This document shows, piece by piece, positions 1-51,819 of a stretch of 51,819 bases of DNA. Position numbers and translations under genes: made by a program. The stretch lies in the NCBI GenBank assembly GCA_020279385.1, contig GCA_020279385.1_4133.1; one strand, given 5' to 3'. The first letter of the stretch is position 1, and each line of letters opens with the position of its first letter. Origin of the DNA: a phage. The notes below the pieces were generated by a model. It made no database searches, was not told the DNA's origin, and worked only from the letters and a program-made list of their open reading frames with translations.

Positions 1-1528
1 AATTTCTTTCTTCCAGCATTGGAAGCAAGTGCCCTTCTATCCTCTTCATTACGCCAGCCTGACCAACGAAAGGTTTTACCTTTCTCGCTGATTCGTACAG
101 GGCGCGAATATTCAGGATCCCTTTGTTCGCCTTGCCGTGCCTCGTGATCAATTCAATCAATTTGCCCATTTCAGCATCATCACCAGCATAACCAGAAGCA
201 TTTGCGGCGCTAATGTATGTTTTGCTCAATTCCTGAAACATGATCAACGCCTCTTGCATTGTTTCCACGTCGATCTCTTTCGACTTCTGCGGGTATCCAG
301 CAGGATTAAACCAGTTGCGGATAACATGCAGGACGGAAGCAAGCCTGATCACCTGTTTATCCATTTTACCAAGCGCACCGCGTAACATTGTATGAGAATA
401 CTTTCCTCCGTCTGCAAGATGCGGTTCCATATCCTGGCGAGCAATGTTGAGCACTCGCATAGCTGAACGGCTTATTTTCAGCGATATATTTGATTCGCTC
501 ATGATGTTATGCACCAATTGATAATATTGGGCTTTCAATTCAGAATCCACCGCCTCATAGGTAGAATCACCATTTTCATCAATGAATGAGCGACGGCCTA
601 AGAATGATTCCTCGCGGACCAACAAAAAACGCTCACTAACACCGATGCCTCGCGATCCAGCGTCCATGATTCCGCTTATCGTTTCATCCTGGGCTATAAC
701 GCTCATACATCCAAGCGCGCGAAAACTCATATTATTGTCAGCATTAGCACGGGCAATTGATACGTGACCATTATCCCACGCCTTAAGCACTAGCTCACTG
801 TTAGTCTTCCTTTCGCTATTTGCATAGGTCAAGCCTAACAGACTGTTAATACTTGTTGCTTCGTCAGATATTACGGCAAAGTTACCTTGCTTGTTGTTGA
901 TTTTCGCCAAGCCTTCTGGAGTTGTATCTGAAACAGGAAAAGTTATATCACACATTTTTTCCAGCTTTTCCTCCAGATCCTCTTTTTCCTGGTATAGAGA
1001 TTTCATATCAGCGCCGGATCTTTCGCTTTTCATCTCCTTTGCAAGACCTGCCAGCTTTGCCTGTATTTTCTTTCTTTCCTTGCGGCGTTGCTCGTTGATC
1101 TTCTCAACTTCCGCAATCATCGGAGCGATAGCCATGCTGTTGATCGCAGATTTACCAGTTGACGGCGGCTGGCTTGTAACGACGTAAAGCGCAGTCGGCT
1201 GATCGGTTCCGTGATAGTCAACCGTAAAACGTCCAAGCATAGCGGCAGAAATGCAGCCGATAAAGTGCATGTAAGCCGATGATTCAGGGAATTGAACGGA
1301 TCGCGCAATGCTGCGTGATAACTTGCCGACAACATCAATATCATTACCAAGAGAAATAACGGGGTAGCGATCGTGACCGCTATTCACATCCTTTACGTCG
1401 CCCCAAAAGCTGGACGACTGGCGATAGCCGTTAGCCTGAATTGATACGCGAACTGGTGAAAGGTTCTGGCTTTCAGCCATAGCGATTATTTGCTGTGGAG
1501 TTAATTTGTTCGTTTCTAATGAAAACAT
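1..1528 (-). CDS. Large hypothetical protein, at least 509 aa in window; C-terminus runs off the window start
   Basis: Uninterrupted minus-strand frame from ATG at 1528-1526 (AAGGAG RBS upstream) to position 1; absent from the ORF track because it has no in-window stop; function unknown. Confidence 0.7.
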   Translation of the reverse strand, partial: MFSLETNKLTPQQIIAMAESQNLSPVRVSIQANGYRQSSSFWGDVKDVNSGHDRYPVISLGNDIDVVGKLSRSIARSVQFPESSAYMHFIGCISAAMLGRFTVDYHGTDQPTALYVVTSQPPSTGKSAINSMAIAPMIAEVEKINEQRRKERKKIQAKLAGLAKEMKSERSGADMKSLYQEKEDLEEKLEKMCDITFPVSDTTPEGLAKINNKQGNFAVISDEATSINSLLGLTYANSERKTNSELVLKAWDNGHVSIARANADNNMSFRALGCMSVIAQDETISGIMDAGSRGIGVSERFLLVREESFLGRRSFIDENGDSTYEAVDSELKAQYYQLVHNIMSESNISLKISRSAMRVLNIARQDMEPHLADGGKYSHTMLRGALGKMDKQVIRLASVLHVIRNWFNPAGYPQKSKEIDVETMQEALIMFQELSKTYISAANASGYAGDDAEMGKLIELITRHGKANKGILNIRALYESARKVKPFVGQAGVMKRIEGHLLPMLEERN

Positions 1529-1580
1529 TCGTTAGCTTCTCCTTTGTGGGCCGTAAATTTTAACGGCCCAATACTACCCC

Positions 1581-1602
1581 GTTTTGTCAAAAAGTGCTAT
1601 TT
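1581..1602 (-). promoter_or_regulatory. Copy of conserved intergenic element AATAGCACTTTTTGTTAAAAC (variant), about 55 nt upstream of the 1528 start
   Basis: Read directly: reverse complement matches the element found in about 19 copies. Confidence 0.5.
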
Positions 1603-1813
1603 GATCCGCTCTATTGCAACCAGAAGTCGATCAGGCTGGCGGTCGCTGTAGCATTCTCCTGTAATCCCATCTTTAAACGTAAAGTAAAGCGCCTTATGAT
1701 ATGAAAAACCAATCAGCCAGCCTACCGCCGTTTTTTGATGGGCCTGACTATATCGCCAGGCTTGAAAGTCTTTGTGGTAGAATGCGTTACTTTGTAACGG
1801 TTTTCACTGTTTA

Positions 1814-2200
1814 TCACAGATATTTGCCCTCAAACAGATAACATCCGCCAGCAGAGAATCCGACCTCTTCACGGTACAGGTTCCAGCGGTCGCCGCACTC
1901 ATCAAAAACATAACCCGCAACGCTTCCAAGCGGTCGCCCTTTCTCGATCTGGTATCGCTTGCCCTGCTTAAAGTGCTTTTTGCACGGCATGTTATGATCT
2001 ACAAACGTGCAAAGAACGGTTTTTGTGTTAATGGCGCGGTAATCATCTCGGTTTGCTGGAAGCCAGCGGCTACCCTTAACAAGCGTCTTAACCTGGAACT
2101 CTTCCACCTCGATCACATCATCACTTCCTGCAATCTTCTGATAAACCGTTTTAAAACGGCCTTTCATCAATACGTTGGTTTCATTACAGATAACATTCAT
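1814..2200 (-). CDS. Hypothetical protein (128 aa)
   Basis: ORF with AAGGAG RBS before ATG at 2200. Confidence 0.6.
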   Translation of the reverse strand: MNVICNETNVLMKGRFKTVYQKIAGSDDVIEVEEFQVKTLVKGSRWLPANRDDYRAINTKTVLCTFVDHNMPCKKHFKQGKRYQIEKGRPLGSVAGYVFDECGDRWNLYREEVGFSAGGCYLFEGKYL

Positions 2201-2254
2201 GATCAGATCTCCTTTGTTTGTTCGATGTGATTATGCCAGGTTTTTACACCTGGC

Positions 2255-2276
2255 TTTTAACAAAAAGTGCTATTTT
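2255..2276 (-). promoter_or_regulatory. Conserved intergenic element copy; contains the TAG stop of the 2270-2956 gene
   Basis: ttttaacaaaaagtgctatttt on plus strand; hairpin ccaggt/acctgg and CATAAT lie between it and the 2200 start. Confidence 0.5.
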
Positions 2277-2956
2277 GAGTTTGACTCAAAGACGGCGCGA
2301 GCAAATCCGCGCGGAGTGAGGGAGCGTAGTTGCTTTGTTCTGGCAGACTTACCTCCTAAAAACTTCCAACCCCAAAAGAACATTACGCCCTCATCATTGG
2401 ATAACGGCTTGCGTTCCGGTTCGGTAAATCCGTTGCCGCACCAGATAGCCGTCCTTTTAGTGTAGCCATCCTTTAGCGGCATTTTGGGGTGAAATGACCC
2501 ATCGGATTCGTCCAGGTAGTTACCAAAATCGCGCGGATTGAAATAAAAATCCGGCTTGCGCCATAGCGTTGATAGTCGGCCTACCGGATTCTCAGCCATC
2601 CAGGGAACACCGAAATGATTTCCGACTTTTTCAACCATGATTGCATTTTGGAGCGCGATATGAATATCGTCTTCGCTGCGCACATGCTTACTTCCTGATT
2701 GGGCGAACATGGTGCAGTCTGGAAAGCCAAATACAATATCAGGTTTTGGAATATCCATCTTAATGATGTTTTCAATGAAATTTTCATCAATCCACATATT
2801 CACATAATGCAGATTTTCATGCTTCATTTTGATGAAATATTCTCCGTGATTGCCTTCGTCAGCGTTAAAGCAATAGCATTGATAACCAGCCTTCGCATAT
2901 TCAAGCAACATGATTCCAGATCCATCAAACATTGAGTAAGCAACTTTATTTCCCAT
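2270..2956 (-). CDS. Short DNA C5-cytosine methyltransferase-like protein with atypical catalytic motif
   Basis: F-D-G-S-G (motif I-like) and DIVFGFPDCTMFAQSG resembling the PCQ motif IV region, plus ENP (ENV-like); start taken at internal ATG just after the HNH stop; no target-recognition domain evident. Confidence 0.45.
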   Translation of the reverse strand: MGNKVAYSMFDGSGIMLLEYAKAGYQCYCFNADEGNHGEYFIKMKHENLHYVNMWIDENFIENIIKMDIPKPDIVFGFPDCTMFAQSGSKHVRSEDDIHIALQNAIMVEKVGNHFGVPWMAENPVGRLSTLWRKPDFYFNPRDFGNYLDESDGSFHPKMPLKDGYTKRTAIWCGNGFTEPERKPLSNDEGVMFFWGWKFLGGKSARTKQLRSLTPRGFARAVFESNSK

Positions 2957-3473
2957 GATTTTTATGATACCCCAATTCATTCTCGGCTTTACGTTTTGCG
3001 GCAACAGCATCTCCAAAACTGGAGAAACAACCTATATAAATCCTACTTCCTCGCTTTCCGCTTCCAACCCTTACAATCCACTTGCCATGTTTATTTTTAT
3101 GCACACCTGGTATGCCACTTGTATTGTTTTTCTGCTTTGATGTGTTTCGCATATTTCCTTTGTGATCTTTTAACTCAAAGTTTATTGCTCTGTTATCAGT
3201 CGTAATGTGATTTACGTGATCAACCTCCATTCCTTCCGGTATAGGCCCATAGTGCATTTCATAGCATATTCTATGAACTTTCAGGTTATAACGTTTTCCG
3301 TTTACAGTAAGTGCGGTTTCTAAATATCTGCCACCACTACCCAAAGAGCCAACCTCATTACCAGCATTACAAGCATTCCATTGTTTAACTCTTGATTGGT
3401 GAATATCTTTTCTTTCTTTCCAGAACAGCTTTCCGGTTTCTGGATTGTATGTAAAGTAATCGTGCCAATTCAT
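2946..3473 (-). CDS. HNH homing endonuclease with AP2-like DNA-binding region
   Basis: HNH-type His/Asn residues (EVDHVNH..N) plus C-terminal basic domain; paralog of 48048-48533; GAGGTGA RBS. Confidence 0.7.
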   Translation of the reverse strand: MNWHDYFTYNPETGKLFWKERKDIHQSRVKQWNACNAGNEVGSLGSGGRYLETALTVNGKRYNLKVHRICYEMHYGPIPEGMEVDHVNHITTDNRAINFELKDHKGNMRNTSKQKNNTSGIPGVHKNKHGKWIVRVGSGKRGSRIYIGCFSSFGDAVAAKRKAENELGYHKNHGK

Positions 3474-3481
3474 TCATCACC

Positions 3482-3706
3482 TCAAAACGGAAAACAGCGC
3501 GCACAACTAGGATCGAAATCGCATCCACAATCATTAACAATCATAGTGGGATCTGCAAATATTGCGCTTGATTCAAGATCCATATCCATATCACCTAAAG
3601 CCTCATCAAGAGTCTTAATTTTATATGCCACTTCAAGCGCCGCCTCTTTATTTAGTCCGGCATCTTCTGCCATTTGAAGGCGCTCAAAAAATCCGTCTTG
3701 ACTCAT
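3482..3706 (-). CDS. Hypothetical acidic protein (74 aa) with C-terminal Cys cluster
   Basis: ORF with ATG start; CGCDFDPSCARC motif. Confidence 0.5.
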   Translation of the reverse strand: MSQDGFFERLQMAEDAGLNKEAALEVAYKIKTLDEALGDMDMDLESSAIFADPTMIVNDCGCDFDPSCARCFPF

Positions 3707-3819
3707 CGCATAATCCCCTTAATAACAGCCAAGATAATAGCCAGGCCAGCAGCAGTAACCAAAAAGCCAACCGCGCCAATAATCGAATAAAAAAAGAAAT
3801 CAATAGCCTTATCTATCAT
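3703..3819 (-). CDS. Possible small membrane peptide (38 aa)
   Basis: Short ORF MIDKAIDFFFYSIIGAVGFLVTAAGLAIILAVIKGIMR with one hydrophobic helix; stop overlaps the next start (ATGCGATGA); RBS spacing poor. Confidence 0.3.
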   Translation of the reverse strand: MIDKAIDFFFYSIIGAVGFLVTAAGLAIILAVIKGIMR

Positions 3820-3860
3820 TTCCACCTCATTTAAAAGGCGGCAAAACGCCGCCATATTAA

Positions 3861-4088
3861 TTAAAGAGCACGCCAACTTTGAATATAGAAAGCGTTTTCT
3901 TCCAGTAATTCTTTTAACTGATCTTTATTGTATTTGCGCACCTTACCGCCTGGATGGATACCAATAAGATAGCCGCCTTTGCCCTCGGTGATAGTGATTT
4001 GGCTAATTCCACAAGACTTATCAAGTTTTACAGCCACGCGGTGATGAGCGTCAATAGTTGACACAATGTTTAAAACTTTTGCTTTCAT
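3861..4088 (-). CDS. Hypothetical protein (75 aa)
   Basis: ORF with GAGGAT RBS. Confidence 0.5.
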   Translation of the reverse strand: MKAKVLNIVSTIDAHHRVAVKLDKSCGISQITITEGKGGYLIGIHPGGKVRKYNKDQLKELLEENAFYIQSWRAL

Positions 4089-4196
4089 TTAAATATCCTC
4101 AATTGAAATATGAATGGCGTCGTGCTCTTTTTCCGTCGCCGCCGTAATGGTCATTTGCAGCCGATACCATCCATGCATTTTTGAAAATAAATAGCC

Positions 4197-4409
4197 TCAT
4201 TTCTTATTTTTCATCTTAAATTTATGGCCTGGAACACCAGCACCAATATACCCATCGTTGTATTCCATCAAATAAAGGTGAATACCATTATCTGAAATTA
4301 CATGAGGATCTTCTTTGAGATTTCCCATTAGTGGATATTCTTTTTCGCGCGTAAATTTCCAAATTGAGTTATAAGTTTCTACGCATTTAAGTTTTAATTT
4401 CTTTGTCAT
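4197..4409 (-). CDS. Hypothetical protein (70 aa)
   Basis: ORF coupled to the upstream gene. Confidence 0.5.
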   Translation of the reverse strand: MTKKLKLKCVETYNSIWKFTREKEYPLMGNLKEDPHVISDNGIHLYLMEYNDGYIGAGVPGHKFKMKNKK

Positions 4410-4690
4410 TATGCGATACCAGTTACGTTAAAACTTACAGCCTTTGTTGCGCTAAATACATAAGCATCAACAGCGCCGCCAAATACACGAATTTTACCCT
4501 GGCCGTACTGCGCATTCATATTTCGCCAAACCGTTCTATTAGAGCAGAATGCGCTACCAGTCTTAATAAGCGTATCCATCTCTTTTCTTAGATCGCGATA
4601 GTCCAGCCAGAATCTAAAGGCACGCTGTTTAATTCGCGCCGCCTTGATTTTTTCTCTTGCGCTATTGAAATCATTCTTTTCGTATGCCAT
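4409..4690 (-). CDS. Hypothetical protein (93 aa)
   Basis: ORF with GGAG RBS. Confidence 0.5.
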   Translation of the reverse strand: MAYEKNDFNSAREKIKAARIKQRAFRFWLDYRDLRKEMDTLIKTGSAFCSNRTVWRNMNAQYGQGKIRVFGGAVDAYVFSATKAVSFNVTGIA

Positions 4691-4887
4691 TAAATGATCT
4701 CCATGTATGTTTCAAAGCCATTTAACTTGAACAGGTCGTTTTCACATTTGCGCACGTTCCAAGTTAGCCCTGAGTGGTACGCATCCATATCATCAAGGTC
4801 AATGGTGATTTCAGCACCTTTCTTAAACAAACCTTTTTCGTGAGACTTGTCGCGCTTAACAACTTTAACATCAACCTGATTTTCCAT
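4690..4887 (-). CDS. Hypothetical protein (65 aa)
   Basis: Track ORF begins at GTG 4938; internal ATG at 4887 has GAGGAT RBS. Confidence 0.5.
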   Translation of the reverse strand: MENQVDVKVVKRDKSHEKGLFKKGAEITIDLDDMDAYHSGLTWNVRKCENDLFKLNGFETYMEII

Positions 4888-4942
4888 CTTTAAATCCTCG
4901 CTTGTTGTCGATGGGTGTAATATACCATTCAGGCGCACATCG

Positions 4943-4965
4943 TTTTTAACAAAAAGTGCTATTTA
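4943..4965 (-). promoter_or_regulatory. Conserved intergenic element copy immediately after the stop of 4963-5226
   Basis: ttttaacaaaaagtgctattta read on plus strand. Confidence 0.5.
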
Positions 4966-5226
4966 GTCCAGGAATTCGATTTCACGCTCTCCAGTTAACG
5001 GATCCACAAGCCAGAATCCGAGCGGTTCGCCGTGAACACCGCCATAGAATCCAAGCGCTGTCAGATCTTCACCTTTAACGAATACCAGGTTTCCGCTACG
5101 GCTTACGTGAGAAACGTTAACGATAACCGGAAATGTGCGATCCTTAAATGCAGGCCGCAGGGCGTAACATCCGTTGTTGAGCAAACGTGCTTTGCGCTTA
5201 ACTGGAATAGGTGCATTAATTTTCAT
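4963..5226 (-). CDS. Hypothetical protein (87 aa)
   Basis: ORF with AAGGAG RBS. Confidence 0.55.
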   Translation of the reverse strand: MKINAPIPVKRKARLLNNGCYALRPAFKDRTFPVIVNVSHVSRSGNLVFVKGEDLTALGFYGGVHGEPLGFWLVDPLTGEREIEFLD

Positions 5227-5452
5227 GGTTATTACTCCTTATCGTAAAGATTTAAAGACGTATAGTTTATTGCGGTAACTATATATCCGCATTGTTATTT
5301 CTCGCAGTGCAATATATTCCTTCCTGTTTTCCGGAAGACTGGCGAGCAACAACAGGCAGTATTTATAAGCGCGGTCAAGATTTCTTTCCGTGCCCCTGCA
5401 ATATCCCTTGTTGCGCCTGGAACGGTACAGCCATAACAATTTCTTGAACATT

Positions 5453-5662
5453 TCAGATACGCCCATACAGATCACAGACTTCGTTGATAAAATTGCTTTG
5501 CGCCCCTTTGTTGTCACGCTCAAGAATTGCGCGGCATTCAAACTTATGATTATGCACGATGACTACAACCATGTTTTCAGGCATTGAGCGGTTATAGCGT
5601 TGCGCATCAGTGATTAAAACATCCATACCCATCTCATGTGCTTTCTTGATCACATCCAACAT
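5453..5662 (-). CDS. Hypothetical protein (69 aa), paralog of 5650-5916
   Basis: ATG at 5662 with AGGAG RBS; C-terminal NFINEVCDL matches ADFINDVCLL of the neighbour. Confidence 0.5.
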   Translation of the reverse strand: MLDVIKKAHEMGMDVLITDAQRYNRSMPENMVVVIVHNHKFECRAILERDNKGAQSNFINEVCDLYGRI

Positions 5663-5916
5663 TTTTTCTTCTCCTGCAATAAGCAAACATCATTGATAAA
5701 ATCAGCACGGCCCTTAATGTTGCTGATGTGGAGCGTCTTTTCAGCGTACAGGCCATCACCTTCAATCACGATCATTACGCGAGTCGGTTTATTCACGGGC
5801 GCACACGAAAAGAGTGGGCGCGCCGGAAGAAATTTAGTAGCCACATCCAGGTTAGCCCTGGCGGCCCTGCAAAATGCCTCCGCCAGATCCAAATCATTTT
5901 CGGTAATCACCGCCAT
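5650..5916 (-). CDS. Hypothetical protein (88 aa), paralog of 5453-5662
   Basis: ATG with GAGGAG RBS; shared VxIEGD...FINDVC pattern. Confidence 0.5.
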   Translation of the reverse strand: MAVITENDLDLAEAFCRAARANLDVATKFLPARPLFSCAPVNKPTRVMIVIEGDGLYAEKTLHISNIKGRADFINDVCLLQEKKKCWM

Positions 5917-6188
5917 TACTTCTTGATCTCCTCACTGATAAATTTCAGCACCTGACGCAAGAAAACCTCGTTGTTGATAGTCGCTGGCAATTCTTCCTTC
6001 ACTTCTTGCGGCAGATAGATATTGCCGTGCCAGGTCAAGCAATCGTAGTTGATACGATAAGAGCAAAGCCACTCGCAATCGTTATCTGCTTCCCAAATGC
6101 AGAGTTGCAGAACATCGCCAAAATCTTCAACAGTCAGATCCAGACCGTGACGCTTAGCGAAGTTGAAAGTGGTTTTGCTGATGTTCAT
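5916..6188 (-). CDS. Hypothetical protein (90 aa), first gene of the leftward block
   Basis: ATG with AGGAG RBS. Confidence 0.55.
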   Translation of the reverse strand: MNISKTTFNFAKRHGLDLTVEDFGDVLQLCIWEADNDCEWLCSYRINYDCLTWHGNIYLPQEVKEELPATINNEVFLRQVLKFISEEIKK

Positions 6189-6247
6189 TTACTATCTCCT
6201 GAGCGGTTCGTTTTGATGTGTGTAATGTACCCGATCAGACGGCCTGA

Positions 6248-6269
6248 GTTTTAACAAAAAGTGCTATTT
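6248..6269 (-). promoter_or_regulatory. Conserved intergenic element copy upstream of the leftward block
   Basis: gttttaacaaaaagtgctattt on plus strand, about 60 nt from the 6188 start. Confidence 0.5.
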
Positions 6270-6298
6270 GACGGTTAGCGCCAGGATTGCGATCTAAA

Positions 6299-6390
6299 TA
6301 ATCAAAAGTAATCATTCGTAATCAAATCACGTCAAAATGATGATTGCCTTTGCAAATTTGATGAGAAAAGTAATCACGTTTAATCATTGG
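6299..6390. repeat. Iteron-like direct repeats of (G)TAATCA at about 10-bp spacing
   Basis: TAATCA at about 6299, 6309, 6319, 6371, 6381 plus inverted tgatgattg at about 6338. Confidence 0.5.
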
Positions 6391-6560
6391 TTGCAGGGGA
6401 GATAGTGAAACCTTCCCCTCTTTCCTCACTTTTCCGCCCGGCTGTCAGTGGTTGTTGTCTTTTGTTCACCCCTGTTACCGATTTCAGGCGGCGTGTTTCC
6501 GCGCGGTTTTCCGGTGTAGCGAAAACGGAAAAAACAAAAAAAATCCTATATAATACATTG

Positions 6561-6750
6561 AAAATAAAGATTATTTATTTATATATATCTATAATGTTTT
6601 CTTTTTGTTCTCACTGTTACAGTGCTTTTTTTTGGGTGTGGTGTGGTTGTGTGTTGGTATATATGGATAGTTGCGCGCGCGGCGGATTGCATATGTATAT
6701 ATACTTTTTCCGGCGGATTGCGTTAACAGCGTGAACAGAAAAATAACAGC
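6561..6750. repeat. AT/GT-rich non-coding element A, homologous to 36796-36974
   Basis: Shared blocks ttatttatttat, GT-rich tgggtgtggtgtggttgtg, catatgtatatata..ccggcgg, gaacagaaaaataaca. Confidence 0.6.
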
Positions 6751-6822
6751 CCTGAAATCAACAACTTGCGCATGATTTTGTAGTTTTTCGATATTGGTAA
6801 CGTTTTGAATACAACAAAAACA

Positions 6823-6850
6823 TTGACACGCACCAAATAGCTTTTATAAT
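6823..6850 (+). promoter_or_regulatory. Consensus sigma70-type promoter for the rightward early block
   Basis: TTGACA, 16-nt spacer, TATAAT, followed by GGAGGAAAGG RBS and ATG 6882. Confidence 0.65.
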
Positions 6851-6881
6851 GCGCCAACAGTCAACAACTGGAGGAAAGGAA

Positions 6882-7346
6882 ATGGAACAGAAGACCACTA
6901 AGGACTATTGCGATTGGCTTCGCGAGCTTGGTCGCCGCCTGGCTAGTGGCGATATTGAAGAGTATAAAATGTCACTAATTGACCTGGCCGGAATGTTAAG
7001 CGGTGACGACTGCTACAAGATCACGCGCAGTTCATCCTACAGCCGGACCATTATCAACCGCGTTCCAGAAGTAAGGGCCGCAGGTCGGGTAAGCATCAAG
7101 GTAGAGGAAACGGAAGATGATAAATTTTACGTTTTCCGCATGGTCCGCGAATCGAAAAGGAAAATCATCACACCCGAAGAATTGCCAGCCATCAAGGCAA
7201 GGGCGATCAAAAAGTTTGCCGATCGCTTACTGGCAGCAATCCCGAATATCGTTGACCTGGAAGGGGATAAACTGGCTGGGGCTTGCGAGGGCGTAAGCCG
7301 CTACCAGGATATGATCCGCGAAATCATCAAAGAGGAGGAGCAATAA
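6882..7346 (+). CDS. Hypothetical early protein (154 aa)
   Basis: Internal ATG with GGAGGAAAGG RBS; the upstream track ATG overlaps the -10 hexamer. Confidence 0.6.
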   Translation: MEQKTTKDYCDWLRELGRRLASGDIEEYKMSLIDLAGMLSGDDCYKITRSSSYSRTIINRVPEVRAAGRVSIKVEETEDDKFYVFRMVRESKRKIITPEELPAIKARAIKKFADRLLAAIPNIVDLEGDKLAGACEGVSRYQDMIREIIKEEEQ

Positions 7347-7606
7347 TGAAAAAGGCATTAATCGGCGTTTTGGCGGCAATGGCATTCCTGACCGGATGCG
7401 AAAAGGCATCAGAATCAACGGTTGTCGTAGGCGTGGAGTCAGATTTTAAAGTCGGTCGCCTGTTCACTGTTGACGGATGCACAGCATACAGATTCTATGA
7501 TAACGGTCGCGCGATCTATTACACCAACTGCAAAGGCGCAACGGATAGCACGTACAACAGCGGAAAGAACGTAATGCACCAGCAAGTCACAACAGATATT
7601 AAATAG
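7346..7606 (+). CDS. Putative lipoprotein (86 aa)
   Basis: MKKALIGVLAAMAFLTGC signal peptide with lipobox; GAGGAGG RBS; TAATG coupling. Confidence 0.6.
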   Translation: MKKALIGVLAAMAFLTGCEKASESTVVVGVESDFKVGRLFTVDGCTAYRFYDNGRAIYYTNCKGATDSTYNSGKNVMHQQVTTDIK

Positions 7607-7622
7607 CACTTTTTGTTAAAAC
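7601..7622 (+). promoter_or_regulatory. Conserved intergenic element copy containing the TAG stop of 7346-7606
   Basis: aaatagcactttttgttaaaac, then GC-rich dyad and CATAAT before the 7679 start. Confidence 0.55.
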
Positions 7623-7678
7623 GCCGGGCGCAAAGCCTGGCATAATAGCCTCATCGAAACGAGATTGAGGAAACAAAA

Positions 7679-7864
7679 ATGGCACGTCGCATCACCAAAG
7701 ACCTTAAAGTCCTGAACAAAGAAAACGTAGTTAAAATCCTGGTTATCTGGGGCTACAACGAAGAAGCAGCAAAGCAGAAGGTAGAGGCAGGTTATGACCT
7801 GGCTGTAAAAGCAATGCCAAACGACGACGCCAAAGGCATTGCAAACTATGTAGCTTTCTTTTAA
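7679..7864 (+). CDS. Hypothetical protein (61 aa)
   Basis: ORF with GAGGAAA RBS. Confidence 0.5.
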   Translation: MARRITKDLKVLNKENVVKILVIWGYNEEAAKQKVEAGYDLAVKAMPNDDAKGIANYVAFF

Positions 7865-7879
7865 TTAGCGGGTGAATAA

Positions 7880-8065
7880 ATGAAAACGAAATTAGTCCAT
7901 AAATCAGAAATCAAGATTGGCGATACCGTGATTCACAACGGCGAGCTTAGAACGGTTGGCAAAGAGTCAATAAGCCACGATGAATTTATGGGGATCTTGT
8001 TGTTCGGTGACTCTTATCGTCTTGGTTACAAGATGGTTGAGCTTGTGGAAGAGGTAAAATTCTAA
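7880..8065 (+). CDS. Hypothetical protein (61 aa)
   Basis: ORF with ATG start. Confidence 0.5.
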   Translation: MKTKLVHKSEIKIGDTVIHNGELRTVGKESISHDEFMGILLFGDSYRLGYKMVELVEEVKF

Positions 8066-8085
8066 ATAGCACTTTTTGTTAAAAC
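8064..8085 (+). promoter_or_regulatory. Conserved intergenic element copy
   Basis: aaatagcactttttgttaaaac containing the stop of 7880-8065. Confidence 0.55.
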
Positions 8086-8163
8086 TCGAAAACTATAACC
8101 AGGCATAATAAATCACATAGGGCGGCACGTCGTCGCCCACAAAACCAATCAGGAGAAAGCACC

Positions 8164-9057
8164 ATGTTAAAACTTGCTGACATTAAATTCCCGATCACCT
8201 TCGAATCTCGCGGCATTGGTCATTACATTTTTACTGATGAAAAAACATGCCATAAAGTTGATTTGCATAGCTACAAGCGTGCTCCATCAGGCATGGAGAT
8301 TGAACACTTCATTGATGCACATAACAAGCACTACAGCGCACTTAAAGACTATGGCTATGCAATGCCAGGCTACACATGTTTGCACTACAAGCCATATAAG
8401 GGCCAGGTGTTACCAGTGCGATCACCGGAACGCGCAGAGATTCCGATGGTCAATATGAAAACCTGCGACTACAAAAAGCTGTGGTGCTTAAGTCTGGACA
8501 ATATCAAGTATCCGATCACGTTCCACACGACTGGCAAGTCAACGATTCGCTACACATCGCGCGACAATGGCGTTTATAGCAATGGTCAGAAATCAGGGTT
8601 TAAGGTGGATTCCTTTGTTAATGGTCATAATAAATACAATCCGCACAATGAAAAAGATAAGATTTACTATGTGGAAGACATTACAAAACACTTGTTTGGA
8701 GAAACTCCATTCGGCGGCGGGAAGACGGCAGTTCAGAAAATCATTGGCGAGGAGATCCACAAAGCGGCTGCCGAAATGAAAGCGCCTGGAGGCTGGCGTA
8801 TTGATAAGAGCGCCTTTGCAAATCAAGAAATCGTAACGCAGGGCGCGATTGAAGATATGCCAGTTGCAGCCACGCTAAAAGGAGTCCGGCTTGATGATGG
8901 TGTGTGGTTTGAAGTAACGGCTACACCAAAGACGATCGAGATTCATGATGACGTTGTTATTCTTCTGCTTCACCACGGCGGCTATAAAAACCGGACGGTT
9001 GCAGGTGAGATCAGCATCAAGCGCGGAACGATGGTTAAGTGGAAGGTCAAAGTGTAA
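8164..9057 (+). CDS. Hypothetical protein (297 aa) with internal duplication
   Basis: AGGAGAAAG RBS; repeated segment LADIKFPITFESRG / LDNIKYPITFHTTG. Confidence 0.6.
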   Translation: MLKLADIKFPITFESRGIGHYIFTDEKTCHKVDLHSYKRAPSGMEIEHFIDAHNKHYSALKDYGYAMPGYTCLHYKPYKGQVLPVRSPERAEIPMVNMKTCDYKKLWCLSLDNIKYPITFHTTGKSTIRYTSRDNGVYSNGQKSGFKVDSFVNGHNKYNPHNEKDKIYYVEDITKHLFGETPFGGGKTAVQKIIGEEIHKAAAEMKAPGGWRIDKSAFANQEIVTQGAIEDMPVAATLKGVRLDDGVWFEVTATPKTIEIHDDVVILLLHHGGYKNRTVAGEISIKRGTMVKWKVKV

Positions 9058-9078
9058 ATAGCACGAATTGTTAAAACT
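9057..9078 (+). promoter_or_regulatory. Conserved intergenic element copy (variant aaatagcacgaattgttaaaac)
   Basis: Followed by hairpin gtggggccat..atggccccac with TATAAT in the loop. Confidence 0.55.
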
Positions 9079-9130
9079 CAAATGTGGGGCCATGTATAAT
9101 GGCCCCACTTTCAACGAAGGAGATAAAACG

Positions 9131-9349
9131 ATGTACATTAGCAAGAAGATGAAATGTGTTTCCGTTAACTATGCTTGCTCTGGCATGTTCAAGCCTGGCG
9201 AAATCTATACGGCGCAAAAACTGAAATCATCAACCGGATCTTTTTACGTGCCCAATAGTAAGGGGCATCGCATGTTCCTGAACGGCGGCGAAGGCACTAA
9301 GGTTATGGCACACGCTATGGTAATGGCTGAATTTGAGGAGGTTAAATAA
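9131..9349 (+). CDS. Hypothetical protein (72 aa)
   Basis: Internal ATG with AAGGAG RBS. Confidence 0.5.
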   Translation: MYISKKMKCVSVNYACSGMFKPGEIYTAQKLKSSTGSFYVPNSKGHRMFLNGGEGTKVMAHAMVMAEFEEVK

Positions 9350-9762
9350 TGGATGACTGCATGCCGTTTCCTGGATATAGAAATAAAGATGGTTACGGTC
9401 AGGTTTGCATAAATGGTGTAGTTGTTGGTGCTCACAGGTTAGCATATTGCAGAGCTAACAACCTTTCACTTAATGATATACGTGGAATGGTTGTAAGGCA
9501 TAGGTGTGATAATCCGCCGTGCTGCAATCCTGATCATTTGGAGATAGGGACGCAAAGGGATAACGTTATTGATTGCATAAAGCGAGGAAGGTTTAAAAGT
9601 AATGCTGGTGTTAATAATCCAAGAGCAAAATTGAATTACGACACAGCAGAAGAGATTCGCAAAGAGTACGCTAGCGGCGTAGTGTCTATGGGGGCGCTAG
9701 CTGAGAAATACATGGTTGGTAAAAGCACAATAAAAAGAGTTATTGACCGGAGCATTTGGTGA
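9349..9762 (+). CDS. HNH endonuclease
   Basis: HRCDNPPCCNPDHLEIGTQRDN motif. Confidence 0.7.
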   Translation: MDDCMPFPGYRNKDGYGQVCINGVVVGAHRLAYCRANNLSLNDIRGMVVRHRCDNPPCCNPDHLEIGTQRDNVIDCIKRGRFKSNAGVNNPRAKLNYDTAEEIRKEYASGVVSMGALAEKYMVGKSTIKRVIDRSIW

Positions 9763-10472
9763 TGAAAATTTATACATTTGAACTATGGGGCAATAAGTAC
9801 GAATTTACGACAAGCAAGCCTATTGTTGTGTGCGATCTCGACGGCACACTATCGGACGGATCGCATCGTTTGCATTTGCTGCCAACTGAAAACTTGCACC
9901 TTACGGAATCGTGGAGCGAATTTAACAGGGCCGCCGCCGGAGATTCACCGATTAAAAGCACGATCGCGGTTATTAACGGTTTATGGGTGTCGGGATTTGC
10001 CATCGTCATCTTGACCGGACGCAGCGACGAGGTTCGCTATGAAACCTGCAAATGGTTGAATGAGAACGGCGTGAAGTTTGACGAAATCATCATGCGCCGC
10101 CAGGAGGACAACCGAAAGGATACGGTTATTAAAGAAGAAGCCTTGCGCGCTATTGGCCTGGACAACATTGTTTGCGCCTTTGACGATTCGCCGAACGTGG
10201 TTAAGCACTTCCGCAGCTTGGGGATCACAACCTATCAGGTCACGGAATACGACAAGCCACGCGCTCACATACAATCTCACGGCGTGGAATCAATAAAGAT
10301 CACGAAGCGCGCCCGATTCGTCGGCAGCAAAGACAGCCTGGTCAATGCCAGCTTTATCAAAGGCAAGGTTTATGATGTTCATAGCCATGATAAAAACCGA
10401 TTCTTTTTGTGGGATGAAAAAGGTTTTGGCTGGTGCTTTAAGCATGACGACGGCGATTTTGTTAATGCGTAA
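9762..10472 (+). CDS. HAD-superfamily phosphatase (polynucleotide 3'-phosphatase-like) with extra C-terminal domain
   Basis: DxDGT motif (VVCDLDGTLSD); start overlaps HNH stop (TGATG). Confidence 0.6.
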   Translation: MKIYTFELWGNKYEFTTSKPIVVCDLDGTLSDGSHRLHLLPTENLHLTESWSEFNRAAAGDSPIKSTIAVINGLWVSGFAIVILTGRSDEVRYETCKWLNENGVKFDEIIMRRQEDNRKDTVIKEEALRAIGLDNIVCAFDDSPNVVKHFRSLGITTYQVTEYDKPRAHIQSHGVESIKITKRARFVGSKDSLVNASFIKGKVYDVHSHDKNRFFLWDEKGFGWCFKHDDGDFVNA

Positions 10473-10491
10473 TAGCACTTTTTGTTAAAAC
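10470..10491 (+). promoter_or_regulatory. Conserved intergenic element copy
   Basis: taatagcactttttgttaaaac then hairpin gggcttgcgttatagtaagccc. Confidence 0.55.
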
Positions 10492-10546
10492 ATCTCAACG
10501 GGCTTGCGTTATAGTAAGCCCATCAACAACAAACGAGGATTAAATC

Positions 10547-10810
10547 ATGGCTAACAAGATCGAGTTTTTTAAAGCGGTAGACATTATTGATGGCGCGCCT
10601 AGCTTCTTTGCCATCCATTCCATTGACGGCAAGGATATTGGGTACAACGTTATCCGTCGAGATGGAATCTCAAAACTTAGCGATCTGGTAGGGCGTATTG
10701 TGTCAAACGGGAAATGCGCATGGCCGGATTCGCCACGAGAGCCACGCCGCCGCGACATGGTAGATCCTGTTCTGCTTTACACCCTGGTAGTAGAAGGAGA
10801 AAATAAATGA
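10547..10810 (+). CDS. Hypothetical protein (87 aa)
   Basis: ORF with GAGGAT RBS. Confidence 0.5.
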   Translation: MANKIEFFKAVDIIDGAPSFFAIHSIDGKDIGYNVIRRDGISKLSDLVGRIVSNGKCAWPDSPREPRRRDMVDPVLLYTLVVEGENK

Positions 10811-10992
10811 TTTGGTTACTTGCTTTTTTGGTTGTTTTTCTTTACATTTCAGGCTTGTTTACGTTCCGCGCGTTGGTGAAATATTATGACGCGACATACA
10901 AAGACGATAAAATCGTTCTCGCTTTCTGGTTTGTTTGGGTGTGGTTAGCAATTTACGAGATCATCAGAGACAAACAGAAATTTGAGTGGTGA
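10807..10992 (+). CDS. Small membrane protein (61 aa)
   Basis: Two hydrophobic segments; ATGA overlap with upstream gene. Confidence 0.45.
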   Translation: MIWLLAFLVVFLYISGLFTFRALVKYYDATYKDDKIVLAFWFVWVWLAIYEIIRDKQKFEW

Positions 10993-11048
10993 TTCTTGCT
11001 ATGGCGCATTCATGCAGTGCGCCATGTTGAGAAAACCTAAAGGGGGAA

Positions 11049-11201
11049 ATGATGCGTAACTTTGAAAAAATCATTACCAAAAAGAAGCGTCGCGGGTACG
11101 ATGAGCATGTGGAGCTTGTGAAAAAGCAACGCAAGAAGCGCAACGAAGACAAGAAGCGCGGGAAAAAATTTAATGCGATTTTTCGCTATGGAGATCATTA
11201 A
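11049..11201 (+). CDS. Small basic protein (50 aa)
   Basis: Sub-threshold ORF MMRNFEKIITKKKRRGYDEH... with AAAGGGGGA RBS. Confidence 0.35.
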   Translation: MMRNFEKIITKKKRRGYDEHVELVKKQRKKRNEDKKRGKKFNAIFRYGDH

Positions 11202-11203
11202 TC

Positions 11204-11794
11204 ATGAAACGAGACATTATCATCCTTAATGGGCCGCCAGGTTGCGGGAAGGACACTATTGCAGCTTACCTAACGGGCCATCGTTACCCAGCGGTCAAGG
11301 CGTCATTCAAACAGCCGATGTTCGATATTGCTTTTTCTATGCTGGGCGTGTACCGATACGATGAATTTATGGACCTGTACAACGACCGAGAGCAAAAAGA
11401 AAAGCCTCAAGTTATCTTGGGCGGCAAGTCACCTCGACAATTCATGATCTGGATTAGCGAGGATGTAATGAAGCCAGTTTTTGGGGAACACTATTTCGGG
11501 CGTCGAATGGTTGAAGAGATTCACGAGATGTACCGAGATTTGGCGGTTGTGATCAGTGATGGCGGATTCCCCGAAGAAATCAAGCCGCTGGTTAAGGCAG
11601 GGCATGAAGTGCATATTTGCCGATTGCATCGCGACGGCTTCACGTTTGCTGGCGATTCGAGAGACTACATTGACCTGAGCGGTTATCACTATCGAATCCA
11701 TCACTATGATTTCCACTTGCAGGACGGTAAGCCGGAACTGGCTGTAAACGAGATCGTCAATGCTGTCAAATGGAAGCACACACAGATTAAATAG
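11204..11794 (+). CDS. P-loop nucleotide kinase (dNMP kinase-like)
   Basis: Walker A ILNGPPGCGKDT near N-terminus, similar in layout to phage deoxynucleotide monophosphate kinases. Confidence 0.6.
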   Translation: MKRDIIILNGPPGCGKDTIAAYLTGHRYPAVKASFKQPMFDIAFSMLGVYRYDEFMDLYNDREQKEKPQVILGGKSPRQFMIWISEDVMKPVFGEHYFGRRMVEEIHEMYRDLAVVISDGGFPEEIKPLVKAGHEVHICRLHRDGFTFAGDSRDYIDLSGYHYRIHHYDFHLQDGKPELAVNEIVNAVKWKHTQIK

Positions 11795-11809
11795 CACGAA
11801 TTGCTAAAC
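11788..11809 (+). promoter_or_regulatory. Conserved intergenic element copy (variant)
   Basis: taaatagcacgaattgctaaac followed by GC-rich segment and TATAAT. Confidence 0.5.
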
Positions 11810-11864
11810 GCGGGGCGCAATGCCTCGCTATAATGCAAACACCAATCAACGAGAGGAAATCACA

Positions 11865-12245
11865 ATGGTTAACATCAGAAAAATCCGCGTCGGCACTAAA
11901 TTCTTAGTTACTTACGCAATTCCAGATAGCGGAATGAAGAAGGGCCAGATTGTTAAGGTTGATAGCAAAAGATTCGGAATCCCTGGTATCAATGGCTATC
12001 TAATCAATAGAGATCTTGGATTCGACGGCTTCGCTATCCGTGCGCTTGAGGGTATTGTTGCCACTCTTAAACGAATCACTAATCATCGCGGCTGCCCAAT
12101 CAAGACGATTAAAGCGCCAATAAATTACGGCAAACTGGATAATCGTCGAATCCGCCGCCTGGCGCGTAACGCGTTAAAATTCCGTGGCGTAGGCGATGAT
12201 TTCTACTATGGATACAAGAGGATTGCGCGCAATGCTGGGAAATAA
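11865..12245 (+). CDS. Hypothetical protein (126 aa)
   Basis: Internal ATG with GAGAGGAAA RBS. Confidence 0.5.
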   Translation: MVNIRKIRVGTKFLVTYAIPDSGMKKGQIVKVDSKRFGIPGINGYLINRDLGFDGFAIRALEGIVATLKRITNHRGCPIKTIKAPINYGKLDNRRIRRLARNALKFRGVGDDFYYGYKRIARNAGK

Positions 12246-12344
12246 CAATAACGCAACGAATCCTAAGCCACCTTTTGATTTTCATTCCGCAATGATTGCG
12301 GTATTATCAATGCTACTTTTTCTTTATAGCATGAGGGCGCTACT

Positions 12345-12593
12345 ATGGTTTTTAACGCATTGAAACGACTGTTTAAGCCGGAATACCGGATCGTATTTTG
12401 CCGCGACTGTTCTACTTATCATGTGCAGCGACGCAGCTTAGGCGGCAATTGGCACTATGTTACAGATGACTTTTTCGGCATCATTGCCACTGAATTTAAG
12501 TATTACAGTGATGCCTATATGTACGTCAAGAAGCGCCACCGCTTACGCAAGTGTCGTTTTTCCGTGCTGATTCACGTTAATGATTGTTACTGA
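12345..12593 (+). CDS. Hypothetical protein (82 aa)
   Basis: ORF; Cys/His-containing. Confidence 0.45.
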   Translation: MVFNALKRLFKPEYRIVFCRDCSTYHVQRRSLGGNWHYVTDDFFGIIATEFKYYSDAYMYVKKRHRLRKCRFSVLIHVNDCY

Positions 12594-12600
12594 GGTGAAA

Positions 12601-12783
12601 ATGAAAACTGGTATTATTATTCTTTTCCTGATCCTTTTCGGTAGCCATTTAACCATTAACTATGAGGGCATTATGGCCTTTTGGGGCAACTTGATGGTTT
12701 TTGCCGCTGGTTCAATTACTGGCTACTCTGACGGGAAAAAGGACGGTGTTCGCAAGATGCTGATGGGACTTAAACAAAAATAA
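12601..12783 (+). CDS. Small membrane protein (60 aa)
   Basis: ATG with GAGGTG RBS; hydrophobic N-terminus. Confidence 0.4.
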   Translation: MKTGIIILFLILFGSHLTINYEGIMAFWGNLMVFAAGSITGYSDGKKDGVRKMLMGLKQK

Positions 12784-12794
12784 GGGGATCTGAA

Positions 12795-13085
12795 ATGGCA
12801 AACAAAACTTACCGCAAACTACTAGTTAACGCTTTTGAAAACATTGCGCAGTGTAACAAGTGGAACGACTCTAAACACTCGCCAGTCACAATGAAGCGCG
12901 CCGGATTCAAAAATGCTCGTTCATGGGCGCGAGCTTTCGCAGCTTGCTATATGCCGGATGGTGGACTAGGAGCGATGAACGATTTTTTGATCAACATGAT
13001 AGAGGAAGCTGCGCGAGAGGATCGACCGCTGACACAGCGAGATTTTGACGACTTCGCGCGCGATGAGCTTTACTATCTGAGCTAA
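12795..13085 (+). CDS. Hypothetical protein (96 aa)
   Basis: ORF with AGGGGA RBS. Confidence 0.5.
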   Translation: MANKTYRKLLVNAFENIAQCNKWNDSKHSPVTMKRAGFKNARSWARAFAACYMPDGGLGAMNDFLINMIEEAAREDRPLTQRDFDDFARDELYYLS

Positions 13086-13104
13086 TAGCACTTTTTGTTA
13101 AAAC
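13083..13104 (+). promoter_or_regulatory. Conserved intergenic element copy
   Basis: taatagcactttttgttaaaac then hairpin agggcatttgataaagtgccct. Confidence 0.55.
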
Positions 13105-13160
13105 TTCCGAAAGGGCATTTGATAAAGTGCCCTTATTGAAGCGAAACAGAGGAAAGCGCA

Positions 13161-13373
13161 ATGAAAATCAAAATCACCAAAATCGACACCATCAACGGCG
13201 ACGGATCAATCACTCTTGAGCAATGCGGTTTGGTTGTTGGTGATGTGCTGGAGGTTGACGGTCATTTCAGCGACGGATCTTATTGTGTTATTGCGCCGCG
13301 TAACAGTGAGTTTATCAAGGCTGGCGATAATATTAGTGTTAACCATGACGAATGCGAGGTAGTAGAAGAATGA
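13161..13373 (+). CDS. Hypothetical protein (70 aa)
   Basis: ORF with GAGGAAAG RBS. Confidence 0.5.
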   Translation: MKIKITKIDTINGDGSITLEQCGLVVGDVLEVDGHFSDGSYCVIAPRNSEFIKAGDNISVNHDECEVVEE

Positions 13374-21902: not shown

Positions 21903-21927
21903 CTAATAGCATAAAAAAACATTGCAC

Positions 21928-51226: not shown

Positions 51227-51286
51227 AATTTTACCTTTTGGTTGTTTCGTTTCGATGAAACAAATATACCCGACACTAGGCCGGGC

Positions 51287-51307
51287 GTTTTAACAAAAAA
51301 TGCTATT
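51287..51307 (-). promoter_or_regulatory. Conserved intergenic element copy with hairpin, inverted relative to the 47562 copy
   Basis: gttttaacaaaaaatgctatt preceded by cccgacactaggccggg on plus strand. Confidence 0.5.
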
Positions 51308-51423: not shown

Positions 51424-51819
51424 TCATGTGATATTGAATTTACGGCGCAGTGCTTCAAGATCTTGTCTATTAGCTTTTGCCTGGAACAATTCATCATCGC
51501 CCATCTCCCCTATTCTAGCCATATCCCTGATCCAGTCGTTGCGCATACCATCCAGGCTATACAATTCGAATCCGAAAGGCCGCTTTGACGATCCTTTGGA
51601 CCAGTATTTACCGCAGACCCCATCTATATAGCCAGCCGTCATCATTCTTGCGCAAAATTCCTTAGATGCAAGGCTGGCGAACATTCGCGGCGTAAGTCCG
51701 GCGGCCCGTGCGAGCCGCTCACATTCTCTATGCTGATAGATAAATTTGGCTATGTGCTGCCTGTTAAACCAGTCGTATGACTCACACCATTTATACAGAT
51801 CAAGCAAAAACATAATCAT
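51424..51819 (-). CDS. Hypothetical protein (131 aa), start at or beyond window end
   Basis: ATG at the last three bases of the window; purine-rich RBS would lie at window positions 1-15 if the ends are contiguous. Confidence 0.45.
   Translation of the reverse strand: MIMFLLDLYKWCESYDWFNRQHIAKFIYQHRECERLARAAGLTPRMFASLASKEFCARMMTAGYIDGVCGKYWSKGSSKRPFGFELYSLDGMRNDWIRDMARIGEMGDDELFQAKANRQDLEALRRKFNIT

What the first reader, a model, noticed from the sequence alone, without database searches (positions are those of the whole stretch)
1..1528. The window ends are probably contiguous: the large leftward gene appears to finish across the junction and overlap the start of the gene at the far end
The minus-strand ORF beginning at 1528 is still open at position 1. 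If position 51819 is joined to position 1, the frame continues for six codons (Y-D-Y-V-F-A) to a TGA at about 51802-51800. The ATG of the 51424-51819 gene then sits exactly at the junction, preceded by a purine-rich RBS-like GGAAGAAAGAAA supplied by window positions 4-15. Such tidy gene coupling across the join is unlikely by chance and implies an arbitrarily linearised circular or circularly permuted genome. The protein would be about 516 aa; I could not assign a function, and it contains a TSQPPSTGKS segment that is not a canonical Walker A.
Basis: inference. Interest (0 to 1): 0.5.

Follow-up and report, generated by a model that had tools for sequence, protein, structure and literature searches.

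The report
Phage genome ends: neighbours, 49 bases missing
The window is a T1-like coliphage genome cut open at an arbitrary point, so its two ends are neighbours on the circular map. However, 49 bases are missing between them, so the tidy gene overlap seen on joining the ends is an artefact and the finding is ordinary.

Summary
Joining 51819 to 1 extends the minus-strand ORF from 1528 by six codons to a TGA at 51802-51800 (515 aa). The ATG of the 51424-51819 gene is the last three bases of the window.

The exact join is not the real sequence. All 27 related loci that span both flanks, and 84 of 87 matching phage records, carry 49 extra bases exactly between the two window ends.

A public contig from run SRR12199279 is 100.000% identical to the window over 34 kb. 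It runs 31 nt past window position 1 into that 49-nt segment, not into the window's far end.

The true gene encodes a 526-aa protein ending ...EERNYVCVINGVIFVNPILLG. Its TGA overlaps the next gene's ATG (ATGA). The "RBS" at positions 4-15 is simply helicase coding sequence (E-E-R-N).

The protein is a DUF3987, MCM-like (SF6) replicative helicase. "QPPSTGKS" is the family's invariant P-loop. The missing 17 residues form the wing of its C-terminal winged helix.

The downstream 131-aa protein is a small winged-helix protein, not YdbL.

The circular-permutation interpretation is right and already known for T1-like phages (Drexlerviridae). Interest is low.

The parts
1..1528 (-). DUF3987 (MCM-like, SF6) replicative helicase gene, codons 1-509 of 526. 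The last 17 codons and the stop are not in the window. Position 1 is the first base of codon 510.
1145..1168 (-).
   Evidence: Q120 P121 P122 S123 G125 K126 S127 are invariant in 50 homologues down to 36% identity. In the model the segment sits between strand 115-119 and helix 126-166.
51424..51819 (-). 131-aa gene (129 aa if it starts at the second ATG, 51813-51811). It encodes a small winged-helix protein, phrog_2794, labelled 'YdbL' in some records.
51800..51802 (-). TGA that closes the helicase frame only if the ends are joined exactly. It is not the real stop codon.
   Evidence: for the join. for the real stop, which is a TGA overlapping the ATG at 51819-51817 after 49 further nt.
4..15 (-). 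Purine-rich GGAAGAAAGAAA. It is helicase coding sequence (part of L-E-E-R-N), not an RBS for the 131-aa gene.
   Evidence: The same sequence is present in relatives 49 nt further from the ATG. The translation ...LPMLEERNY is conserved.
1539..1544 (-). Shine-Dalgarno AAGGAG, 10 nt upstream of the helicase ATG.
   Evidence: Read directly from the sequence.
1581..1600 (-). Copy of the phage's recurrent promoter-like box (ATAGCACTTTTTGACAAAAC) upstream of the helicase gene. It is the likely start of the helicase / 131-aa transcription unit.
   Evidence: 14 copies with 3 or fewer mismatches against 0.01 expected, mostly upstream of gene blocks.
51268..51306 (-). Next copy of the box (51287-51306) plus a GC hairpin (51268-51286), downstream of the 131-aa gene. 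It marks the end of the unit and the start of the 74-aa gene unit. It is also one arm of a 31-nt exact inverted repeat with 47571-47601.

Best explanation
The window is the genome of a virulent T1-like coliphage (Drexlerviridae, Tempevirinae; nearest relatives are Warwickvirus phages such as JLBYU07 and SECphi27). It was assembled as a circle and opened at an arbitrary point that falls in the 3' end of a replication gene.

The two window ends are neighbours on the circular map, but 49 nt are absent from the record between 51819 and 1. On the + strand these are CCCAGCAGTATTGGATTGACAAAAATAACACCATTAATCACACAAACAT. The unique genome length is therefore about 51,868 bp.

The interrupted gene encodes a 526-aa DUF3987 protein. 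This is an MCM-like (superfamily 6, AAA+) hexameric replicative helicase with the P-loop QPPSxGKS, a Walker B motif (VISDE), an SERF arginine-finger-like motif and a C-terminal winged helix. Its stop codon overlaps the start codon of the next gene (ATGA). That gene, encoding a 131-aa winged-helix protein, is therefore probably translated by termination-reinitiation coupling. Both genes lie in one leftward transcription unit that starts at the conserved promoter-like box at about 1600.

Shown: the 49-nt gap, the gene identities, the fold and the conserved motifs. Inferred: helicase activity, translational coupling, the promoter role of the box, and the reason the 49 nt were lost (an assembly break or trimming).
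For: (1) 27 of 27 related loci covering both flanks have exactly 49 nt between the window's last and first 30 bases. 84 of 87 matching phage records hold the rebuilt junction as one ungapped piece of 349 nt.

(2) Same phage, independent assembly. Logan contig SRR12199279_101 (47,631 nt) is 100.000% identical to window 1-13473 and 25763-46353 with no gaps. Contig SRR12199279_222 is an exact substring of window 47572-51298 and is the only contig in the collection with this endolysin. Contig _101 extends 31 nt beyond window position 1. On the minus strand those bases read ATGTTTGTGTGATTAATGGTGTTATTTTTGT. That is the first 31 nt of the 49-nt segment and encodes ...NYVCVINGVIF.

(3) The helicase is 526 aa, with a 4-nt ATGA overlap to the 131-aa gene, in all annotated or gene-called relatives of this subgroup.

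(4) The missing tail is conserved. N521 is nearly invariant and P522 invariant in 50 homologues down to 36% identity. In the model it forms the two wing strands 511-514 and 517-520 of the C-terminal winged helix.

(6) Literature. DUF3987 proteins are described as divergent SF6 helicases with a C-terminal wHTH, proposed as phage replicative helicases (PMC4889955). A PriCT-DUF3987 protein was shown to be a Walker A/B-dependent 5'-3' helicase (PMC11724360).

(7) The whole window is colinear with a rotated SECphi27. Relatives are opened at many different places. T1-like genomes are circularly permuted.
Against: I could not read the raw reads, and I could not retrieve the SRR12199279 contig that covers 51299-51819 and the 18 nt just upstream of the ATG. 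Those 18 nt are therefore inferred from relatives only.

The reason for the loss is unknown. It is odd that the window ends exactly on a start codon, and that it starts exactly 31 nt (the Logan k-mer size) inside the Logan contig. Helicase activity, coupling and promoter function are all untested for this protein.
Confidence: 0.92

Rival explanations
1. The exact join is real. This phage carries a genuine 49-bp deletion, so its helicase is 515 aa, ends in YDYVFA, and overlaps the next gene by 20 nt.
For: The join gives an intact ORF with a nearby stop. CAT occurs at both edges of the missing segment, a 3-nt microhomology.
Against: A 100%-identical independent assembly continues from position 1 into the 49-nt segment. 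The junction 30-mer is absent from three large collections. No relative has the deletion. The deletion would remove the conserved wing (N521, P522) of the C-terminal winged helix. A deletion coinciding exactly with the linearisation point is improbable. A stop this close is expected 28% of the time by chance.
Confidence: 0.04
2. The window ends are (close to) the physical ends of the virion DNA, such as a cos site or fixed termini. Assemblies would then stop there and lose a few tens of bases.
For: Two assemblies of the same read set, the window and the Logan contig, both break inside the same 49-nt stretch. That break is not explained by a repeat.
Against: T1-like phages package by the headful mechanism from a pac site and are circularly permuted. 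No cos site was found in SU57, and pac lies in the untranslated region next to the small early ORFs. The terminase genes are about 15 kb away, at 15.2-17.3 kb. Assemblies from many other samples run straight through this site. The site lies inside a conserved coding sequence.
Confidence: 0.03
3. The break reflects heterogeneity in the sequenced population at a homing-endonuclease hot spot. Two haplotypes would differ in the last 18-49 nt of the helicase gene, or by an HNH gene inserted between the helicase gene and the 131-aa gene. They would form a graph bubble, and the record would be the backbone between the bubble's two ends. This concerns the cause of the gap and is compatible with the best explanation.
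For: In Fulano1, L036 and L042 an HNH gene sits exactly between the helicase stop and the ATG of the 131-aa gene. Similarity between phages then stops at that ATG, which is where the window ends. The Logan contig starts immediately after a base that is polymorphic among relatives (position 18 of the 49-mer).
Against: There is no direct evidence of a second haplotype in this run. The other 47.6 kb assembled without a break, which argues against a mixed sample. Simple trimming or low coverage would give the same result.
Confidence: 0.25

Closest known systems
Helicase / 'YdbL' gene pair of Warwickvirus phages (e.g. Escherichia phage JLBYU07 JLBYU07_16/_15; SECphi27 gp11/gp10)
   Same: 97.6-99.4% nucleotide identity on both sides of the junction. 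Same gene order and same flanking genes: holin, endolysin, spanin and a 74-aa gene on one side; a 73-aa gene (intact in the relatives), a 128-aa gene and a Dcm-type methyltransferase gene on the other.
   Different: The window record lacks the 49 nt that hold the last 17 codons of the helicase gene. The rest of the genome is a distinct phage; its best long match is 91.7% identical over 86% of window 26000-50000.
MCM / superfamily 6 AAA+ replicative helicases (archaeal MCM, eukaryotic Mcm2-7)
   Different: 10-17% identity. No MCM Pfam hit was reported. The N-terminal part aligns poorly (TM about 0.35 over the full length), so an MCM-type N-terminal OB/zinc domain is not evident. A 40-residue helix (126-166) directly follows the P-loop.
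AgaPH, the PriCT-DUF3987 helicase of a pAgo-associated mobile element (PMC11724360)
   Same: Same Pfam family (DUF3987), with Walker A/B motifs and a small C-terminal domain. AgaPH was shown biochemically to be an oligomeric, ATP/dATP-dependent 5'-3' helicase.
   Different: AgaPH has an N-terminal PriCT domain and works with an AEP PrimPol. The phage protein has a different N-terminus, and the phage's primase (Zn_Ribbon_Prim, 309 aa in the gene calls on relatives; within window ORF 42531-43538) is a separate, distant gene.
Phage T1 and other Drexlerviridae genomes as sequence records
   Same: Circularly permuted, terminally redundant headful genomes that assemble as circles and are deposited opened at arbitrary points.
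   Different: Nothing of substance, apart from the 49-nt hole at the opening point in this record.

Membership tests
   The 100%-identical Logan contig continues from position 1 into the 49-nt segment. 27 of 27 relatives have 49 nt between the two ends.
Arbitrarily linearised circular map of a T1-like (Drexlerviridae) phage | Gene order colinear with a rotation of related genomes, and both ends map to adjacent positions | tested here: met
   the ends map to SECphi27 4765 and 4815; the region is contiguous in 84 or more records, each opened elsewhere.
Arbitrarily linearised circular map of a T1-like (Drexlerviridae) phage | Virion DNA circularly permuted and terminally redundant (headful, pac) | not testable with these tools
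   Known for T1-like phages from the literature (PMC7718038). Testing it here needs reads or restriction mapping of this phage.
DUF3987 (Pfam PF13148) | Match to the family HMM above the gathering score | tested here: met
   153.2 bits against a cut-off of 27; residues 81-430 match HMM positions 3-350 of 364.
SF6 / MCM-like AAA+ helicase | AAA+ core fold closest to MCM | tested here: met
SF6 / MCM-like AAA+ helicase | Conserved NTPase motifs (P-loop lysine, Walker B acidic pair, arginine finger) | tested here: met
   G125 K126 S127, E223 and R300 are invariant, and D222 and S298 nearly invariant, in 50 homologues. Assigning R300 as the arginine finger is an inference.
SF6 / MCM-like AAA+ helicase | Hexameric ring, ATP-driven DNA unwinding | not testable with these tools
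   Shown only for another DUF3987 protein, AgaPH (PMC11724360).
SF6 / MCM-like AAA+ helicase | [quoted passage not shown] | tested here: met
   Met for the full 526-aa protein (helices 474-481 and 493-507, strands 511-514 and 517-520). The 515-aa product of the exact join would lack both wing strands.
YdbL (the label used in some phage records for the 131-aa protein) | Match to a curated YdbL family model | tested here: not met
   No Pfam or NCBIfam hit at all. The predicted fold is a winged helix, so the label looks like a carried-over misannotation.
Translationally coupled gene pair | Stop of the upstream gene overlaps the start of the downstream gene (ATGA) | tested here: met
   Met in every relative of this subgroup and in the rebuilt junction. 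The coupling itself is inferred, not measured. The 20-nt overlap of the exact join is an artefact.

The most novel reading that the evidence does not exclude
The hole at the junction is not a clerical loss. It would mark real heterogeneity in the sequenced phage stock at a homing-endonuclease hot spot between the helicase gene and the winged-helix gene. Examples would be a sub-population with an HNH gene inserted there, or a converted helicase 3' end. In that case the record captures a homing or gene-conversion event in progress.
Probability: 0.1. Interest if true: 0.25.

Novelty: already known. Interest (0 to 1): 0.1.

Why it matters
Scientifically it matters little. That T1-like genomes are circularly permuted, and that they carry a DUF3987 helicase gene, was already known.

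Practically it is a useful caution. Joining the ends of a deposited or assembled phage genome can produce a plausible but false gene end. Here the record lacks 49 nt, so any annotation of it will truncate the helicase or give it a wrong C-terminus. The record length should be about 51,868 bp. The work also shows that the 'YdbL' label on the neighbouring gene has no support, and that the protein is predicted to be a small winged-helix protein.

Tried and rejected
- **The window's own record.** It is not in the phage collection (best long match 91.7%), nor in IMG/VR, JGI metagenomes or GTDB genomes by an exact 43-mer.
- **The exact-join 30-mer.** No hits in the viral, metagenome or genome contig collections.
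- **The 49-mer elsewhere in the window** (possible misassembly). No match with 3 or fewer mismatches. No terminal direct repeat of 5-499 nt.
- **A repeat as the cause of the break in the 49-nt stretch.** Rejected: no 14-mer from the junction region recurs elsewhere. A 31-nt inverted repeat does explain the other two Logan contig breaks.
- **The third SRR12199279 contig (51299-51819 onwards).** The only complete gene on it encodes a protein present in 844 index blocks, and only the 24 blocks with the longest contigs are read. Look-ups with the HNH and 398-aa proteins also did not show that run.
- **Sequence search of solved structures with the helicase.** Only chance coiled-coil matches. NCBIfam gave nothing.
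- **Literature searches.** Searches for the run accession and for the promoter-like box found nothing.
- **tRNA scan.** None found.

Full report
**1. What is in the sequence**

The minus-strand ORF starting at ATG 1528-1526 is preceded by AAGGAG at 1544-1539. It is open down to position 1, giving 509 complete codons. The last three bases of the window are CAT, the ATG of a 131-aa minus-strand ORF (51819-51424).

When 51819 is joined to 1 in silico, the long ORF reads six more codons (Y-D-Y-V-F-A) and stops at a TGA at 51802-51800. That gives 515 aa and a 20-nt overlap with the next gene.

**2. Is this more than chance?**

No. In this window a random entry point meets a stop after 6 or fewer sense codons 28% of the time. 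Of the three frames entering the 131-aa gene, one is the gene's own frame and the other two stop after 0 and 5 codons. A tidy stop shortly after the join is therefore weak evidence.

**3. What the window is**

The first 3 kb match T1-like coliphages (Drexlerviridae, Tempevirinae, Warwickvirus) at up to 99.3% identity. The whole window is colinear with a rotation of Escherichia phage SECphi27. Window 48528-51819 corresponds to SECphi27 1472-4765, and window 1-2356 to 4815-7171.

The terminase genes lie at about 15.2-17.3 kb, far from the window ends. Related records are opened at many different positions. T1-like genomes are described as circularly permuted headful genomes without cos sites (PMC7718038). 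The interpretation of an arbitrarily linearised circular or permuted genome is therefore supported.

**4. The join is not exact**

A 2,400-nt query made by joining the ends hit 64 records at 80% coverage or more. All 40 listed rows were split in two pieces spanning 2,449-2,450 nt.

Alignment places the extra 49 nt exactly between 51819 and 1...ATAATCAT[CCCAGCAGTATTGGATTGACAAAAATAACACCATTAATCACACAAACAT]AATTTC.... All 27 fetched loci that cover both flanks have a gap of exactly 49 nt. These loci come from GenBank, IMG/VR, ENA and Logan.

A 349-nt junction rebuilt with the 49 nt is found as a single ungapped piece in 84 of 87 matching phage records, at up to 99.7% identity. The 30-mer of the exact join occurs nowhere in the viral, metagenome or genome contig collections. 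The 49-mer is not elsewhere in the window.

**5. The same phage, assembled independently**

A strain-specific protein look-up found Logan contig SRR12199279_101 (47,631 nt). It is 100.000% identical, without gaps, to window 25763-46353 and to window 1-13473. A second contig from that run, SRR12199279_222, is an exact substring of the window (47572-51298). It is the only contig in the collection that encodes this endolysin.

Contig _101 runs 31 nt beyond window position 1. On the minus strand those bases read ATGTTTGTGTGATTAATGGTGTTATTTTTGT. They are the first 31 nt of the 49-nt segment and encode ...EERNYVCVINGVIF. They are not the window's far end, which reads ATGATTATGTTT....

It refutes the exact join but not the neighbourhood of the ends.

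**6. The real gene pair**

In every annotated or gene-called relative of this subgroup the helicase gene encodes 526 aa. Its TGA overlaps the ATG of the 131-aa gene in the sequence ATGA.

The purine-rich stretch at positions 4-15 encodes E-E-R-N of the helicase. In relatives it lies 49 nt further from the ATG, so it is not that gene's ribosome-binding site. The pair is probably translated by termination-reinitiation, which is an inference. Many distant homologues of the small protein start at the second ATG (MFLLD...), 6 nt downstream.

A conserved promoter-like box lies upstream of the helicase gene at 1581-1600. The next copy, with a hairpin, follows the 131-aa gene at 51268-51306. The two genes therefore look like one transcription unit, which is also an inference.

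**7. What the large protein is**

- Family: Pfam DUF3987 (153 bits against a cut-off of 27) and PHROG 2373 'DNA helicase'.
- Solved relatives: no solved structure is detectable by sequence.
- Model: an AlphaFold2 model of the complete 526-aa homologue P0001 was built on a 50-sequence alignment. P0001 differs from the window's 509 encoded residues at two positions. The model has pLDDT 88.6 and pTM 0.86.
- Literature: this agrees with the assignment of DUF3987 to divergent SF6 helicases with a C-terminal wHTH (PMC4889955). It also agrees with the biochemical demonstration that a PriCT-DUF3987 protein is a Walker A/B-dependent 5'-3' helicase (PMC11724360).
E223 and R300 are also invariant, and D222 nearly so.

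**8. What the missing 17 residues are**

The tail ...NYVCVINGVIFVNPILLG is conserved down to 36% identity. N521 is nearly invariant and P522 invariant. It forms the two wing strands of the C-terminal winged helix. The 515-aa product of the exact join would lack them. This is a further argument that the join is not biological.

**9. The small protein**

**10. Why the 49 nt are missing is unresolved**

The other two Logan contig breaks in that run are explained by a 31-nt exact inverted repeat (47571-47601 and 51268-51298). The break in the 49-nt stretch is not explained by a repeat.

Three details are curious:
- The window ends exactly on a start codon.
- The window starts exactly 31 nt (the Logan k-mer size) inside contig _101.
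- Contig _101 starts right after a base that is polymorphic among relatives.

In Fulano1, L036 and L042 an HNH homing-nuclease gene sits exactly between the helicase stop and this ATG. A population bubble at a homing hot spot is therefore possible, but so is simple trimming or low coverage. Only the reads can tell.

**11. Verdict**

The feature is an ordinary, already known property of T1-like phage records, plus a 49-nt hole in this one. The reported overlap, C-terminus and RBS are artefacts of the in-silico join. Interest is low.

Noticed in passing
window 1581-1600(-), 2254-2273(-), 4943-4962(-), 6248-6267(-), 7603-7622(+), 8066-8085(+), 9058-9077(+), 10472-10491(+), 13085-13104(+), 21927-21946(-), 44004-44023(+), 46493-46512(+), 47564-47583(+), 51287-51306(-): A 20-nt box, ATAGCACTTTTTGTTAAAAC, occurs 14 times with 3 or fewer mismatches, against 0.01 expected. 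It is nearly always oriented with local transcription and sits just upstream of gene blocks. It is often followed by a GC hairpin, cATAAT, and then an RBS and ATG. It looks like the phage's own promoter or operator signal. The gap between TTGTTA and cATAAT is about 22 nt, too long for a standard sigma-70 promoter. I found no paper containing the sequence.
   Followed up: partly
window 1731-1736 (T6 on +, A6 on the coding minus strand), within 1597-1817: The 73-aa gene lies between the 128-aa gene and the helicase gene in most relatives. Here it is frameshifted by a one-base loss in an A7 run (A7 to A6). The same loss is in the independent Logan contig, so it is in the reads. L034 has lost the gene through a different 1-nt deletion. 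It is either a pseudogene or a homopolymer error shared by both assemblies.
   Followed up: partly
window 47571-47601 and 51268-51298: A 31-nt exact inverted repeat, part of a 62-nt repeat that is 89% complementary. It is made of two oppositely oriented copies of the promoter-like box plus hairpin, and it flanks the 3.7-kb block that runs from a 59-aa gene through the HNH, 398-aa and lysis genes to the 74-aa gene. It explains two contig breaks in k=31 assemblies. In principle it could mediate inversion of that block.
   Followed up: partly
L058 (Fulano1 OL539459) 2741-3214; L036 3914-4387; L042 7956-8429: In some related phages a 157-aa HNH homing-nuclease gene is inserted exactly between the helicase stop and the start of the 131-aa-type gene. 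A second HNH gene lies on the other side of that small gene. This gene boundary is a homing hot spot. The window itself carries other HNH genes at 2946-3473, 9349-9762 and 48048-48533.
   Followed up: partly
window 40027-40149: Two tandem 60-63-nt copies at 92% identity, inside the minus-strand ORFs at 39906-40166 just downstream of the 663-aa tail-fibre-type gene (40457-42448).
   Followed up: no
window 6400-6850 and 36650-36900: Two AT-rich non-coding stretches with short TTTATTTAT/TATATA repeats, at the points where transcription direction switches. By analogy with T1 and SU57, the first is where the pac region or terminal repeat is expected.
   Followed up: no
window 51424-51819 and relatives: The product name 'YdbL' (and 'YfiJ' for the helicase in Shigella phage JK16) is propagated through many GenBank records of T1-like phages. 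No family model supports it.
   Followed up: yes
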